Source: a virus
Taxonomy: Duplodnaviria > Caudoviricetes
Length of the DNA stretch: 24,333 nucleotides
Virus record (IMG/VR): IMGVR_UViG_3300012352_000234
Coordinates: 1 to 24,333 of that record
Reading direction: 5' to 3' (one strand)
Shown here: piece by piece, positions 17,260 to 20,797 of the stretch
Position numbering within the stretch: position 1 is the stretch's first letter
How the letters are laid out: the number at the start of each line of letters is the position of its first letter
Notes under the pieces: model-generated
Told to the model about the DNA's origin: nothing
Databases searched by the model: none
What the model saw: the letters and a program-made list of their open reading frames with translations, nothing else
Position numbers and translations under genes: made by a program

Positions 17260-17267
17260 GATAAATA
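17260..17267 (+). promoter_or_regulatory. Divergent late-type box GATAAATA driving putative sRNA1
   Basis: Only intergenic plus-strand copy of the motif that I found; points at a plus-strand terminator 46 nt away. Confidence 0.55.
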
Positions 17268-17271
17268 CCAA

Positions 17272-17344
17272 CGTATTTGGGATTTATTTTCCTTTTGACC
17301 AGATACGAGAAAGCCCCAGTGAATCACTCCACTGGGGTTTTTTT
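17272..17344 (+). ncRNA. Putative antisense sRNA1 with two hairpins and an anti-SD loop
   Basis: Stem CGTATTTGG/CCAGATACG with loop GATTTATTTTCCTTTTGA, then terminator hairpin; no ORF. Confidence 0.55.
17314..17344 (+). terminator. Intrinsic terminator, U-tract on plus strand, possibly bidirectional
   Basis: CCCCAGTG-AATCACTC-CACTGGGG-TTTTTTT. Confidence 0.85.
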
Positions 17345-17379
17345 GTTTTATTTCCTTTTAGTCTTATTTGGCGAAATAC

Positions 17380-17826
17380 TTATTCGTCTTTGGTGATAGA
17401 ACGAACTTCATAGTTTTCAAACACAATCATTCCTTGATCATAGAACCAGTATTCAACAGTTGAGTATTCGGTTTCAGTTACAGTCTTGCGTTTTGGTTCA
17501 CCCCAAGTGCTATTCTCAATAGCAACCTTACTCATTCCAAGTTTTGGTTCGCGCTTGTAATCAGGAGTTGAGTTCGTTTCAGTGACTTCATAAACTGCAA
17601 TGTTGGTGTCAGTTGCAGCTTTATACATTTTGCACATAATTTTTGCATGATCTTCGTTAATTGCCTTACGACCATAATATTCTTCAACGATTGACGTGTT
17701 GCAATCTTTTGAGAATGGCTGCATAATAGGAGCAACAGTAACAGAATTACTGTCAAGTGAAGTGACAGTGATGTCTTGACCGAAGGCGATAGTCGGCAGA
17801 ACAGCAAGGATCAGTGCAAGTTTCAT
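17380..17826 (-). CDS. Exported protein with signal peptide (148 aa) and a C-terminal BamE/SmpA-like alpha-beta module
   Basis: MKLALILAVLPTIAFG-Q signal; LGMSK...WGEP...EYWFY...IVFEN..V.SI pattern; GAGG RBS 8 nt upstream; own sigma70-like promoter. Confidence 0.7.
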   Translation of the reverse strand: MKLALILAVLPTIAFGQDITVTSLDSNSVTVAPIMQPFSKDCNTSIVEEYYGRKAINEDHAKIMCKMYKAATDTNIAVYEVTETNSTPDYKREPKLGMSKVAIENSTWGEPKRKTVTETEYSTVEYWFYDQGMIVFENYEVRSITKDE

Positions 17827-17853
17827 TTTCATTTCCTCTTTCATTACATATAC

Positions 17854-17882
17854 TGTATATAGCATCATAATGATTCTGTCAA
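17854..17882 (-). promoter_or_regulatory. Sigma70-like promoter TTGACA-N17-TATACA
   Basis: Perfect -35, 17-nt spacer, imperfect -10; upstream of the exported protein gene. Confidence 0.55.
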
Positions 17883-18295
17883 GAAGTTTTTTTGCCCTTG
17901 ACGTGTTTTTTGTGGATTTTGACTTGAATAATTCCGTTGTAGGTATCATCACGTTCCAGCACACAATACTTCATCTGTTCTTTGAGTTCAAGGTATGACA
18001 ACTCACCAGATGCAGATGCGAAGTGAAGTATTTCTCTACGAAAGAATTGAGGTCCATATGCCAATACATCTGCATTGAGTTCTGAACTTGATCCATAATA
18101 ATCTTGCCAATCACTCTCAACATAACTGACACGCTTACGTTTCATTCCCTTGAGAGGTGGCAAGGTCTTTTTAAACCTTGCCTGTTTCTTTCCAATATAG
18201 AATTTACCCGTAATAACATTTGTGATTTTATAAACAAAGCCAAAGACTTCATTGTCAAGTTCGGTTATTGGTAGATAGTTGTATTCCCACTGCAT
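17879..18295 (-). CDS. GIY-YIG family endonuclease (138 aa, start MQWEYNY)
   Basis: GFVYKITN...FYIGKK, ESDWQDYYGSS, FRREIL, YLELKEQ, YNG motifs; a type I associate with T4-like myoviruses. Confidence 0.8.
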   Translation of the reverse strand: MQWEYNYLPITELDNEVFGFVYKITNVITGKFYIGKKQARFKKTLPPLKGMKRKRVSYVESDWQDYYGSSSELNADVLAYGPQFFRREILHFASASGELSYLELKEQMKYCVLERDDTYNGIIQVKIHKKHVKGKKTS

Positions 18296-18455
18296 TTGTT
18301 CTCTTTGCAACTATGTAGACGAGATTACCATAATCAACGTCCTTCTTCATAGTTCTACTTATACGCTGAGACTTGTAGCCTTTTCGCTTCCAGATGAACT
18401 CGCCTCGTATCTCTCTTATTTCGTCCTTGGATATTTGCAATGTTTCTTCCATCAT
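18255..18455 (-). CDS. Hypothetical basic protein (66 aa)
   Basis: ATGA overlap with the upstream gene; fills the operon gap. Confidence 0.55.
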   Translation of the reverse strand: MMEETLQISKDEIREIRGEFIWKRKGYKSQRISRTMKKDVDYGNLVYIVAKRTNAVGIQLSTNNRT

Positions 18456-19003
18456 GCCCACCCATCAAATATTTTAGGTTTTACATCACACTTGATTGAC
18501 TTTGACCACTTCGGACTATTCTTTTTGTTGAGGCCACTGAGTTCTAATTCACCAAACCAAGTGAAATCCCAGAACCTAAATCCAAACATTGGTAGACTAC
18601 CTTCTTCAATAAAACCAAAGGCAATTGCGGTATTGAGTGTTGCGGCATCTTCAATGCTTTCATGGAAGAAACCAGCACTGAATTTCTTTTCAAACTTTAC
18701 TGGGTCTTTTTTGAGATTGGCGTTTGTTTCAAGTATTTGACGATAGAATGGAAATTCTCTGTATTCAACTGGAATATTGCGTAGCCATCTGGCTGGTTCG
18801 AAGTGGTTGAGTATTGGAGCAATGAATGTGCGTTGATTTCCACTATCATCAGTGAACAGCAAATTCACCTTGTATCTGCTTGCATTCTCTTTTTCTCCGT
18901 TGTCAAACAAGTTGAAATAGATTTTAGAGTAGTCGTCTTCGTTTATCAACTTATTCGTTGTCTTCATTTGATAGGTTCCTATCGCGTCAGTTACGTCTTT
19001 CAT
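18452..19003 (-). CDS. Hypothetical protein (183 aa) next to the putative origin
   Basis: AAAAGGAAAA RBS; no recognisable motif. Confidence 0.75.
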   Translation of the reverse strand: MKDVTDAIGTYQMKTTNKLINEDDYSKIYFNLFDNGEKENASRYKVNLLFTDDSGNQRTFIAPILNHFEPARWLRNIPVEYREFPFYRQILETNANLKKDPVKFEKKFSAGFFHESIEDAATLNTAIAFGFIEEGSLPMFGFRFWDFTWFGELELSGLNKKNSPKWSKSIKCDVKPKIFDGWA

Positions 19004-19131
19004 TTTTCATTTTCCTTTTCTGATTTGCATTTGCTCAGTTTGCTTCTGTCTTCTCTTTCGTTCTCCCCCCAATAGGGGAGTGCGTAGCACTCGTGTTTGC
19101 GTTTTCGTGTTTGAGTTATTTCGTTTTTCAT
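19000..19131 (-). CDS. 43-aa leader-type ORF (MKNEITQTRKRKHECYALPYWGENEREDRSKLSKCKSEKENEK), not in the ORF track
   Basis: GGAG close upstream (short spacing); its TGA overlaps the ATG of the 183-aa gene (ATGA). Confidence 0.45.
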   Translation of the reverse strand: MKNEITQTRKRKHECYALPYWGENEREDRSKLSKCKSEKENEK

Positions 19132-19149
19132 TTTCTCCGTTTTATTACA

Positions 19150-19189
19150 TGTTCTCTTGTTCTACTGTTCTAATGTTATAATGTTCTAT
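19150..19189. repeat. Five tandem 8-bp repeats, consensus TGTTCTAN (iteron-like)
   Basis: TGTTCTCT TGTTCTAC TGTTCTAA TGTTATAA TGTTCTAT. Confidence 0.85.
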
Positions 19190-19214
19190 AGATGGGTGAT
19201 TTTTGAGTAGAGCA

Positions 19215-19243
19215 AGTAAGGAGAATCACTCCTTCTCCTTACT
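19215..19243 (-). other. 11-bp leader hairpin at the 5' end of the transcript, loop GGAGTGA
   Basis: AGTAAGGAGAA-GGAGTGA-TTCTCCTTACT perfect inverted repeat right after the promoters; no U-tract. Confidence 0.75.
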
Positions 19244-19245
19244 AT

Positions 19246-19282
19246 TATTTATCATAATAGCACAAAAAGGCTTCATAATCAA
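19246..19282 (-). promoter_or_regulatory. Tandem promoters: sigma70 TTGATT-N17-TATTAT with extended TG, then late-type GATAAATA (19246-19253)
   Basis: -35 at 19282-19277, -10 at 19259-19254, TGn extension, T-rich upstream tract. Confidence 0.7.
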
Positions 19283-19294
19283 GAAAAAAATAAG

Positions 19295-19326
19295 AAAAAC
19301 CCCGTAGTAACTGACATACTACGGGG
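19295..19326 (-). terminator. Intrinsic terminator
   Basis: CCCCGTAGTA-TGTCAGT-TACTACGGGG-TTTTT. Confidence 0.9.
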
Positions 19327-19368
19327 CTTGAAGGTAAAATGAAAAACGAAACAGATAATCTCAGTTCA
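19295..19368 (-). ncRNA. Putative antisense sRNA2 with anti-start-codon seed UUUCGUUUUUCAUUUUACCUU
   Basis: Lies between TATAAATA (19374-19381) and a terminator; 16-nt and 14-nt perfect complements to two gene starts. Confidence 0.6.
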
Positions 19369-19373
19369 TATTT

Positions 19374-19381
19374 TATTTATA
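19374..19381 (-). promoter_or_regulatory. Exact T4 late promoter consensus TATAAATA driving putative sRNA2
   Basis: Intergenic, 47 nt before a terminator stem, no credible ORF between. Confidence 0.65.
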
Positions 19382-19404
19382 CTACATTTGCACACATATG
19401 TCAA

Positions 19405-19860
19405 TTACTTTTTTGACTTATATGTGCCTTTTGTTATTTTTGGCATCATGAGGTCAGATATTTTGTATTTGTTTTTGAAGTCTCGTCTCTTGCCATAATA
19501 TGGAGGAATTGAATCCCACTCTGCTTTAAGTGCATTGGCTTCATCCTGAGTAAAGCGATAATCAGAACCACCTTTTCTCCAAAACTCACTGCCCTTTGTT
19601 GCGATTTCATAGTGATCTGGATTGACACAATTTACATTATCACATTGATTGACCACACGCTGATTGTGTTTGAGTTCAGTGCCAATCTTATCTTCTTTGA
19701 ACAGACGAGCCGCAATATGCATTTGTCCCTCGTATCGGCACATAGGATATCCCTGAGAATGATGTCCCCCATTCCATTCCCAGCAACCAGTAGTCAAATC
19801 TTCAATGACGTATGCTTCAATCAATTGATCAACGCATGTTACAACTTTTAGTCTGCCCAT
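19405..19860 (-). CDS. HNH/His-Cys (zinc-binding loop) endonuclease-like protein, probably catalytically inactive, with C-terminal HTH-like region
   Basis: GCWEWNG..GY and CDNVNCVNPDH retained; usual AHR and HxCDN histidines replaced (AAR, NQCDN). Confidence 0.75.
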   Translation of the reverse strand: MGRLKVVTCVDQLIEAYVIEDLTTGCWEWNGGHHSQGYPMCRYEGQMHIAARLFKEDKIGTELKHNQRVVNQCDNVNCVNPDHYEIATKGSEFWRKGGSDYRFTQDEANALKAEWDSIPPYYGKRRDFKNKYKISDLMMPKITKGTYKSKK

Positions 19861-19861
19861 A

Positions 19862-20095
19862 TTATTTTCCTTTTATTATTTTTAACATTACCAGATATGT
19901 AAATGTATCACAAAACTCATCGCTCGTATAGTTATATTTATCGCAGAATGAAATGGCATCTAAAAAGACGCCATCCAAGTTTTCTTTTAATTCATAACCA
20001 TTTTGTTTTACGACTGATACGGCATTCAATATGTTTGATACGTAAGGACCATGCATTAGTAATAATCTGGCATATTCACTATCATAATCATACAT
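19862..20095 (-). CDS. Hypothetical protein (77 aa), probable paralog of the upstream gene
   Basis: AAAGGAAA RBS; N-terminus DYDSEYARLLL. Confidence 0.65.
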   Translation of the reverse strand: MYDYDSEYARLLLMHGPYVSNILNAVSVVKQNGYELKENLDGVFLDAISFCDKYNYTSDEFCDTFTYLVMLKIIKGK

Positions 20096-20400: not shown

Positions 20401-20769
20401 TTATTCTCCAATGCTGAATAGATCGTTTCCAAAGATATTATTATCACTTGGACGTTGAGGTTTGTCAATAGTGCCATATAGTTTAAAGTTCTTTGTTTCT
20501 TCGGCTGTCAGTGCTTCGGCCAATACTGGAATACTATCTCCGTCAATCAAATTGTTGTCAAGTATCTTGATTCCAGTGTAAACTCCCCATACTTTATTTA
20601 GCACATTGCTCCAATTGGCCATATTTTTGAAGCCAACACCAATATATGTGTGGTGCTGTTTTCCTGTCTCTACTTCCTTAAAAATGACTATTTTATAGTC
20701 AGGATTTACGGCTATTTTGGACTTTTTCCAGTCAGAAACGCTTATTAGAACGAAATATTTGTTTTTCAT
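20401..20769 (-). CDS. Hypothetical protein (122 aa, beta-rich)
   Basis: AAAGGAG RBS; first gene after a terminator and a CTAAATA box. Confidence 0.75.
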   Translation of the reverse strand: MKNKYFVLISVSDWKKSKIAVNPDYKIVIFKEVETGKQHHTYIGVGFKNMANWSNVLNKVWGVYTGIKILDNNLIDGDSIPVLAEALTAEETKNFKLYGTIDKPQRPSDNNIFGNDLFSIGE

Positions 20770-20797
20770 TTTACACTCCTTTATTTTTGTTCTCTAT

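What the first reader, a model, noticed from the sequence alone, without database searches (positions are those of the whole stretch)
19295..19381. sRNA2 pairs perfectly with two different AUG-AAA-AAC gene starts
Seen: 19336-19351 is an exact 16-nt inverted copy of 19119-19134 (start of the 43-aa leader ORF). 19334-19347 is an exact 14-nt inverted copy of 20761-20774 (start of the 122-aa gene). There is also an 11-nt plus bulged CCUU match to the RBS of the 183-aa gene (19003-19017) and a 9-nt match at the exported protein start (17821-17829). Three of these four targets are the first gene of a non-structural unit. Inference: one multi-target translational repressor for all early units.
Basis: partly seen in the sequence, partly recalled or inferred. 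Interest (0 to 1): 0.8.

Follow-up and report, generated by a model that had tools for sequence, protein, structure and literature searches.

The report
Swappable small-RNA brake on phage genes
A tiny freshwater phage carries a predicted 79-base RNA gene whose exposed middle is the mirror image of three start-region sites in two of its own non-structural gene units, so it likely blocks their translation; a distant relative has a different RNA sequence at the same place, predicted to pair with the start of the same gene family.

Summary
All four matches are in the sequence. Three are beyond chance: 16 nt in 1 of 3000 shuffles, a second site of 14 nt in 0 of 3000, and they are the three best sites in the 24 kb. 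The 9-nt match to the exported-protein start is at chance level. The element reads as promoter, 79-nt RNA with an unpaired anti-Shine-Dalgarno linker, terminator. Contigs of two other runs hold it with one difference but new flanks and a kept -35 box. The '43-aa leader ORF' is not conserved; its site is better read as a second copy of the 183-aa gene's start, so there are two target units, not four. A distant relative has an unrelated 81-nt cassette in the same position whose best own targets are the same two gene families (ranks 1 and 2 of 31). Family-wide matching is moderate (P 0.025 without the window, 0.14 without that relative too). A second cassette in the window also fits the 183-aa start. 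No transcript was seen. T4-type late-promoter motifs in a genome with no recognised sigma or polymerase hint at helper dependence. Likely a trans-acting translational repressor; new variant of a known kind.

The parts
19291..19369 (-). Predicted sRNA2, about 79 nt: weak 5' hairpin, unpaired linker, terminator
   Evidence: Only promoter-noncoding-terminator cassette found by an automatic scan of both strands; fold z -5.3, mostly from the terminator; 5' end inferred from the promoter
19374..19404 (-). Promoter: TTGACA (19404-19399), 17 nt, TATAAA (19381-19376), which is also a perfect TATAAATA (19381-19374)
   Evidence: Sequence; -35 kept as TTGACT at the same spacing in contigs of runs X1 and X5 although the adjoining 10 spacer bases and upstream DNA differ (read by eye)
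19330..19353 (-). Pairing region; 19338-19330 (UUUACCUUC) is predicted fully unpaired and would be the toehold
   Evidence: Unpaired probability about 1.0, opening cost about 5 kcal/mol for the rest
19290..19329 (-). Intrinsic terminator (13-bp stem, U tract); also ends the upstream 122-aa to HNH operon
   Evidence: no other terminator listed between the HNH stop (19405) and this one
19117..19134 (-). Target site A in the leader of the 183-aa gene (start of the non-conserved 43-aa ORF); 18 contiguous bp
   Evidence: net -16.5 kcal/mol
18998..19017 (-). Target site B: Shine-Dalgarno and start codon of the 183-aa gene; 16 bp (one G.U) plus 4 bp
   Evidence: net -16.2 kcal/mol; 19004-19022 kept unchanged in an X5 contig whose coding start differs
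20761..20774 (-). Target site C: start of the 122-aa gene; 14 contiguous bp, extendable on both sides
   Evidence: net -15.3 kcal/mol
18452..19003 (-). 183-aa gene, family of unknown function, beta-rich predicted fold
   Evidence: 9 homologues; pLDDT 83.5; only uncharacterised phage proteins at E<=0.001; no PDB match at E<=0.001 or Z>=5
19064..19204 (-). Conserved non-coding leader of the 183-aa gene: AATCAC box (about 19201), short repeats, twin hairpins (about 19093-19064)
   Evidence: Box found in the window and 9 of 11 relatives; 5 of 11 hairpin pairs show two-sided changes
19246..19282 (-). Promoter of the 183-aa unit: TTGATT-17-TATTAT followed by ATAAATA
20401..20769 (-). 122-aa gene, first gene of the unit that ends in the HNH-like gene; unknown function
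   Evidence: Homologues in G001, G002, L007, L090; no Pfam, PHROG or NCBIfam family
19405..19860 (-). 151-aa HNH-like gene; its stop abuts the sRNA2 -35 box
   Evidence: PHROG HNH hits; alignment A4
17261..17348 (+). Second candidate sRNA cassette: ATAAATA (17261), about 76 nt with exposed anti-Shine-Dalgarno stretch, terminator
   Evidence: 13 nt to the HNH start (17284-17296 vs 19862-19874), 11 nt to the 183-aa start; net -14.0 against best -10.8 of 206 foreign starts; terminator
19339..19416 (+). 25-codon open frame on the opposite strand (rival reading)
   Evidence: no + strand promoter-like site upstream in 19150-19339; no NCBIfam hit

Best explanation
The stretch 19369-19291 is likely a self-contained small RNA gene whose product is predicted to pair in trans with the translation-start regions of two of the phage's own non-structural units (twice on the 183-aa gene's mRNA, once on the 122-aa gene's) and would so block ribosome loading. 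Shown: the complementarity, its excess over chance, the promoter-like and terminator-like ends, the module's persistence between new flanks. Inferred: transcription; first contact through the unpaired UUUACCUUC linker on the Shine-Dalgarno/AUG, then zipping through the weak 5' hairpin to 14-20 bp; repression. Site A, 120 nt upstream of site B, would be a second docking site rather than the start of a real peptide. The RNA is one of a set of interchangeable promoter-RNA-terminator cassettes in this phage family that most often point at the start of the 183-aa gene. Timing is open: the promoter fits both a host sigma-70 and a T4-type late consensus, so the RNA could damp these genes from the start or shut them off late.
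For: Chance controls: 1, 0 and 8 of 3000 shuffles for the best, second and third match; third-best energy reached by 0 of 2000 shuffles. The three sites are the top three of the whole contig on both strands and, with accessibility, -15.0/-14.7/-14.5 against -9.4 for the next own start. Module kept with one difference over about 100 nt in contigs of runs X1 and X5, flanks exchanged, -35 kept at the same spacing. An X5 contig keeps 19004-19022 while the coding start changes in a way that, read by eye, still pairs. In G001 an unrelated 81-nt cassette in the same position ranks its own 183-aa homologue 1st (-17.6; best of 207 foreign starts -8.7; 0 of 300 shuffles) and its own 122-aa homologue 2nd of 31. 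Cognate matching to 183-aa homologue starts over 10 phages: P 0.0036, 0.025 without the window. CTCCT occurs 6 times in 10 cassettes against 0.6 expected, AGGAG never.
Against: No transcript, 5' end or repression has been observed. Cognate matching falls to P 0.136 without the window and G001; for 122-aa homologues P 0.125, 0.625 without the window; L017, G002 and L007 rank their own 183-aa start poorly. Most of the 18 cassettes have no own target better than foreign ones, though many loci are short. Raw energy margins are thin: an unrelated coding site scores -20.3 against -20.8, one foreign start scores -13.8, and 44 of 2000 shuffles reach the best energy. Site A did not align in the X5 contig that spans it. 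The terminator is needed anyway for the upstream operon. X1 and X5 pieces are separate metagenomic contigs and may belong to different strains.
Confidence: 0.62

Rival explanations
1. The RNA is real but its main targets are mRNAs of the host or of a co-infecting helper phage; the own-genome matches are left over from its origin as an inverted copy of a gene start.
For: The seed is a generic anti-start: the 17-mer lies in 64 viral stretches, 46 opening a frame of 50 aa or more. Many relatives' cassettes carry anti-SD motifs without a clear own target. SviR of PLE acts on both satellite and helper transcripts (10.1101/2022.04.08.487710).
Against: Own sites beat 206 foreign starts; G001 repeats the same target families with other sequences. 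The two readings can both hold.
Confidence: 0.13
2. The sequence acts in cis: as the 3' end of the 122-aa to HNH mRNA or in read-through RNA it folds onto site A or B and sets translation of the downstream unit.
For: Folding 19369-19100 or 19369-18980 as one strand pairs the seed with site A or B. No terminator separates the HNH stop from the element.
Against: A 13-bp terminator with U tract lies between seed and sites; the 183-aa unit has its own promoter downstream; X1 carries about 288 nt more between terminator and that promoter; site C lies 1.4 kb upstream; the second cassette is on the other strand and 1.7 kb away, so it could act only in trans.
Confidence: 0.1
3. It is the start of a small gene on the + strand (AAGG, ATG at 19339, 25 codons), live or decayed, and resembles other starts only because A-rich MKN starts are common.
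For: The frame is open for 25 codons and stays open over the 10 further codons visible in X1 and X5 (by eye). Several relatives' cassettes also read as SD plus ATG or ATA on the opposite strand.
Against: No + strand promoter-like site in 19150-19339; SD-to-ATG spacing is only 4 nt; the - strand -35 box is what X1 and X5 keep while the would-be codons beyond 19388 change; no shared peptide was seen among relatives' opposite-strand frames (by eye); hairpin has its U tract on the - strand only.
Confidence: 0.08
4. The four copies are a DNA repeat or protein-binding site (three direct, one inverted), or a chance likeness in A-rich DNA.
For: All copies share one 11-nt A-rich core; short repeats occur in the same leader.
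Against: The inverted copy has G where the direct copies have C or T (wobble logic), carries CCUU opposite the SD, and sits in the unpaired part of a promoter-terminator cassette; shuffles rarely reach it.
Confidence: 0.07

Closest known systems
c4 antisense RNA of phages P1/P7 (Rfam C4)
   Same: About 77 nt, phage-encoded apart from its target, pairs at two sites around the ribosome-binding site of the phage's own mRNA and blocks translation; target specificity changes between phages (PMC5320573 and PMC12197685, passages).
   Different: c4 is cut from a precursor by RNase P, has three stem-loops and uses two loop seeds on one operon; sRNA2 is predicted as a primary transcript ending in its own terminator, with one linear seed over AUG on two units. 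No Rfam C4 hit. No repressor or integrase recognised in this phage.
SviR of Vibrio cholerae PLE satellites
   Same: Trans-acting sRNA with promoter and intrinsic terminator, predicted to pair near the 5' UTRs of several operons of its own element, including genes next to it; regulation seen without Hfq or ProQ (10.1101/2022.04.08.487710, abstract and passages).
   Different: SviR is 210 nt or more, conserved in sequence across PLEs, has a second seed for the helper ICP1 and alters processing of its own targets; here cassettes differ in sequence between relatives, and the element encodes its own capsid and tail.
Hfq-class terminator-ended sRNAs of phages (PreS, VpdS, DicF)
   Same: Short, seed plus intrinsic terminator, trans-acting (10.1101/2024.10.31.621285 abstract and one section; PMC12197685 passages).
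   Different: Their described targets are mostly host mRNAs with short imperfect seeds; here 14-18 contiguous bp to the phage's own starts. Hfq dependence not testable.
Virion-encoding satellite phages MiniFlayer and MulchRoom (for the genome context only)
   Same: Encode encapsidation machinery but lack key replication genes (PMC10690885, abstract), as this contig appears to.
   Different: Streptomyces systems; no helper is known here, and the hint is a T4-type late-promoter motif, not a culture result.

Membership tests
Rfam C4 antisense RNA | Covariance-model match at the gathering score | tested here: not met
   No C4 match up to E 1 in the window; none at gathering score in 9 related loci
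Rfam C4 antisense RNA | Three stem-loops with loop seeds, RNase P processing | tested here: not met
   Predicted fold is one weak hairpin, a linker and a terminator; processing itself not testable
Rfam STnc180 (RF02079) | Score at or above 50 bits | tested here: not met
   38.6 bits, E 2.6e-4, carried by the U-rich linker and terminator and running over the promoter
Trans-encoded RBS-occluding sRNA (functional class) | Own promoter and terminator outside any gene | tested here: met
   (consensus matches and conservation, not transcript mapping)
Trans-encoded RBS-occluding sRNA (functional class) | Accessible seed complementary to SD/AUG of targets beyond chance | tested here: met
Trans-encoded RBS-occluding sRNA (functional class) | Seed and target change together across relatives | tested here: inconclusive
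   Clear in G001; P 0.025 without the window, 0.136 without G001 too; not seen for 122-aa homologues as a set
Trans-encoded RBS-occluding sRNA (functional class) | Transcript exists and lowers target translation | not testable with these tools
   Needs stranded RNA data or a bench test
Cis-encoded antisense copy-number RNA (CopA/tap type, recalled) | Transcribed from the strand opposite its target; blocks a conserved leader peptide coupled to rep | tested here: not met
   RNA and targets are on the same strand and apart; the 43-aa ORF is not conserved; the 183-aa protein matches no Rep family
Type I toxin-antitoxin (recalled) | Target encodes a small hydrophobic toxin | tested here: not met
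   The 43-aa frame is charged and not conserved; the real targets encode 183-aa and 122-aa proteins
Helper-dependent satellite phage | Cannot multiply without a helper | not testable with these tools
   Only indirect: no polymerase, primase, helicase, sigma, integrase among 33 proteins; [AC]TAAATA enrichment

The most novel reading that the evidence does not exclude
This is a family of 21-26 kb virion-encoding satellite phages that borrow the late sigma factor and replisome of a T4-like helper, and that replace a repressor protein with shuffled arrays of promoter-RNA-terminator cassettes. Each cassette is an inverted copy of a gene start; together they hold the 183-aa origin-adjacent gene and its neighbours off until the helper arrives, and may also hit helper mRNAs.
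Probability: 0.22. Interest if true: 0.88.

Novelty: new variant of a known kind. Interest (0 to 1): 0.63.

Why it matters
Few phage sRNAs are known to control the phage's own genes in trans (c4, SviR). Here a minimal genome with no recognised repressor holds two such candidates aimed at one gene of unknown function, and relatives reach the same gene with unrelated sequences in exchangeable cassettes. If true, it shows how antisense regulators arise by inverting a gene start behind a promoter, gives short, nearly perfect seed-target pairs that can be tested in a laboratory strain, and points to the 183-aa gene and its leader as the control point of an undescribed phage family that may depend on a T4-like helper.

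Tried and rejected
Expression: the run search listed no RNA holder among 20 runs; this is no evidence either way. Exported-protein (148-aa) start as fourth target: rejected, chance level. 43-aa ORF as a coupled leader peptide: rejected, no equivalent frame in 9 relatives' leaders and its ATG lies 3 nt from GGAG. A 17-nt seed scan of viral contigs gave 64 stretches, none holding the rest of the RNA; a leader-motif scan gave 0 because the pattern was too strict. No relative of the 183-aa protein in GTDB genomes; of annotated phages only three capsid matches at 26-34% and no real DNA match to the early region. Function of the 183-aa protein: Pfam, NCBIfam, PHROG, Atlas, Foldseek and VIA gave nothing usable; an SSB reading from acidic aromatic tails in some homologues was not supported by any fold match. 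A third family test (45-aa homologue starts, chosen after the fact) gave P 0.035, 0.089 without the window. The hairpin at 19243-19215 has no target (best -2.1) and the stretch 20900-20832 has none better than foreign starts. A parallel with PLE CapR through the HNH gene was dropped: CapR is described as GIY-YIG related (PMC8096241, two passages). In some searches near-identical loci (L011, L015, L016, L019) and one false cassette (L018) were left out as queries; 8 of the 18 cassettes were delimited by hand or added after the automatic scan. Paper searches that found no description of this family or of T4-type late promoters in a small siphovirus; most subscription papers and all supplements were unseen.

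Full report
Context. The window is a whole 24,333-base virus record. All recognised genes lie on the - strand and make up a complete small siphovirus-type virion set: terminase, portal, scaffold, capsid, connectors, tail tube, tape measure, distal tail, fibres. Both contig ends appear to fall in one tail gene: homologues align from residue 33-37 onward at 24325-23867 and an ATG at 95 would supply the missing start, though the frame does not run through the junction; the record looks nearly complete. No polymerase, primase, helicase, sigma factor, integrase or repressor was recognised among 33 proteins, but most non-structural proteins have no family. DNA holders are freshwater metagenomes. The host is unknown.

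Observation. The four matches are exact. Counting G.U pairs, the duplexes are 18 bp at 19134-19117 (site A), 16 bp at 19013-18998 plus CCUU/AAGG (site B), 14 bp at 20774-20761 (site C) and 9-10 bp at the 148-aa start. In 3000 dinucleotide shuffles against 33 start windows, the best match reached 16 nt once, the second 14 nt never, the third 11 nt eight times, whereas 9 nt or more was the best match in 1590. A scan of both strands of the contig puts A, C and B first after the element itself, a further spot in the same leader fourth, an unrelated coding site fifth at nearly the same raw energy, and the 148-aa start outside the top 14. With accessibility the order is A -16.5, B -16.2, C -15.3, 148-aa -8.5 kcal/mol among 8 starts. 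Caution: the three sites share one A-rich core, and such starts are common in phages.

The RNA gene. On the - strand the sequence reads TTGACA, 17 nt, TATAAA, then about 79 nt ending in a 13-bp hairpin and U tract. An automatic search for promoter-noncoding-terminator cassettes returns only this one in the window, so it was not chosen for its matches. The predicted fold leaves UUUACCUUC unpaired between a weak 5' hairpin and the terminator. Contigs of runs X1 and X5 carry 19289/92-19388/89 with one difference each, but other DNA upstream; read by eye, their loose ends keep a TTGACT at the same spacing while the next 10 spacer bases differ. X1 has about 288 more bases between terminator and next promoter, and X2 and X5 show the same promoters followed by other hairpins. 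The unit thus behaves as a movable cassette under - strand selection. These are separate short contigs, so linkage within one strain is not shown. Rfam has no family at gathering score.

The targets. The 43-aa ORF is probably not a gene. It crosses a leader that is conserved in front of the 183-aa gene: an AATCAC box (window and 9 of 11 relatives), short repeats and twin hairpins with two-sided changes in 5 of 11 pairs; no relative has an equivalent frame, and its ATG is 3 nt from GGAG. Site A is nearly a copy of site B with ACG where B has its true ATG, and the RNA has G at that position, which pairs with both. So the RNA would bind the 183-aa mRNA twice and the 122-aa mRNA once. In an X5 contig 19004-19022 is unchanged, the coding start differs yet still pairs by eye, and site A does not align. 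The 183-aa protein folds confidently but matches only uncharacterised phage proteins; its function, and whether the leader is an origin or an RNA structure, stay open.

Relatives. Homologues of the 183-aa gene (37-47% identity) were found in 17 loci from viral and metagenome contigs, several redundant. Cassettes of the same build recur beside it or beside the HNH gene; in a first set of 10, CTCCT occurred 6 times against 0.6 in 5000 shuffles and AGGAG never (two of the ten are related, and sRNA2 itself has only CCTT). I scored 18 cassettes against 238 starts. The clearest case is G001: an 81-nt cassette at the position of sRNA2, unrelated in sequence, has two anti-AUG stretches; its best own targets are the 183-aa homologue (-17.6; best foreign -8.7; 0 of 300 shuffles) and the 122-aa homologue (rank 2 of 31, -8.8, barely beyond foreign starts). 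Another G001 cassette matches two divergent early-type genes by 11 nt each. L091 and L010 also rank their 183-aa start first. Over 10 phages cognate pairs beat permuted ones (P 0.0036; 0.025 without the window; 0.136 without G001 too); for 122-aa homologues there is no signal (P 0.125; 0.625); L017, G002 and L007 run against the pattern. Co-variation is therefore shown for one independent phage and suggested, not established, for the family.

A second cassette. The only intergenic [AC]TAAATA on the + strand (17261) precedes about 76 nt ending in a terminator; its exposed part matches the HNH start by 13 nt and the 183-aa start by 11 nt, with -14.0 against -10.8 for the best of 206 foreign starts. 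I looked at it after noticing the motif and the anti-SD by eye; on the - strand it could also be a worn-out ribosome-binding site.

Promoter type. [AC]TAAATA lies in front of each transcription unit of the window: 7 of 11 coding-strand hits are intergenic although only 6% of the DNA is. Over 11 records, 52 of 72 coding-strand hits are intergenic, against about 14 from shuffles and 6 on the other strand. TATAAATA is the T4 late consensus (PMC5587285, two passages). Structural units carry it without an evident -35; sRNA2 and the non-structural units carry it with TTGAC or TTGAT. Dependence on a T4-like helper is an inference; a host sigma factor or an unrecognised phage activator could read the same motif.

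Mechanism and rivals. Most likely the RNA is made as a primary transcript, docks through the linker on SD/AUG and zips to 14-20 bp, blocking initiation on the 183-aa and 122-aa genes (0.62). Rivals: main targets in host or helper (0.13), cis folding (0.10; possible in silico, but against a strong terminator and variable spacing), a + strand mini-gene (0.08), DNA repeat or chance (0.07).

Comparison and novelty. It would work like P1/P7 c4 RNA (PMC5320573, PMC12197685: passages) and like SviR on its own element (10.1101/2022.04.08.487710: abstract and passages), but belongs to neither family. PreS (abstract and one section), STnc6030 (PMC7067206, 12 of 23 passages) and a review (PMC10884466, passages) describe other modes; PMC10690885 was seen as abstract only. 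Ten searches found no account of this family (listed under Tried and rejected). Earlier notes of this scan report eight similar multi-target anti-start RNAs in other phages; they are unchecked AI notes, no support, but they suggest the design is not rare.

Noticed in passing
window 22033, 20804, 19381, 19252, 17245, 9511, 3102 (- strand); same in G001-G007, L003, L004, L087: T4-type late-promoter motif [AC]TAAATA before every transcription unit, in a genome with no recognised sigma factor, polymerase or primase: possible virion-encoding satellite of a T4-like phage.
   Followed up: partly
window 17261-17348 (+): Second candidate anti-start sRNA, best fits: 183-aa, HNH and 45-aa starts.
   Followed up: partly
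window 19064-19204 (-); L001, L005-L008, L010, L012-L014, L017, L091: Conserved 130-200 nt leader with AATCAC box, short tandem repeats and co-varying twin hairpins; candidate replication origin or cis-RNA, no Rfam hit.
   Followed up: partly
window 19405-19860; alignment A4: All 8 aligned HNH-like proteins lack His in the V-x-H-x-C position recalled as catalytic, while a second HNH in L014 has it; possibly a nuclease-dead DNA-binding regulator.
   Followed up: no
window 19215-19243 (-): 11-bp hairpin just behind the 183-aa unit's promoter that holds two AAGGAG copies and an anti-SD; kept in X1 and X5 contigs; no target found.
   Followed up: partly
window 17879-18295: SegE-type GIY-YIG endonuclease domain (Pfam PF19835), a family recalled from T4-like phages.
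   Followed up: no
L090 5230-5683 (G003): In place of the 183-aa gene and leader, a 450-nt gap without a called gene behind the same promoter; preceded by a cassette nearly identical to G002's; may be a larger non-coding RNA.
   Followed up: no
L001 5040-5480; L091 1297-1600; L012 5360-5790; L090 2966-3250: Tandem arrays of two or three promoter-RNA-terminator cassettes.
   Followed up: partly
L087: A 23.5-kb contig with 59% capsid identity sits in a Brevundimonas MAG; no 183-aa homologue in the part fetched; could be a host hint or a binning error.
   Followed up: no
L002 1781-2007: A more distant relative has a cassette with three anti-SD stretches just before two larger non-structural genes; best own target is the first gene of its early unit.
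   Followed up: partly
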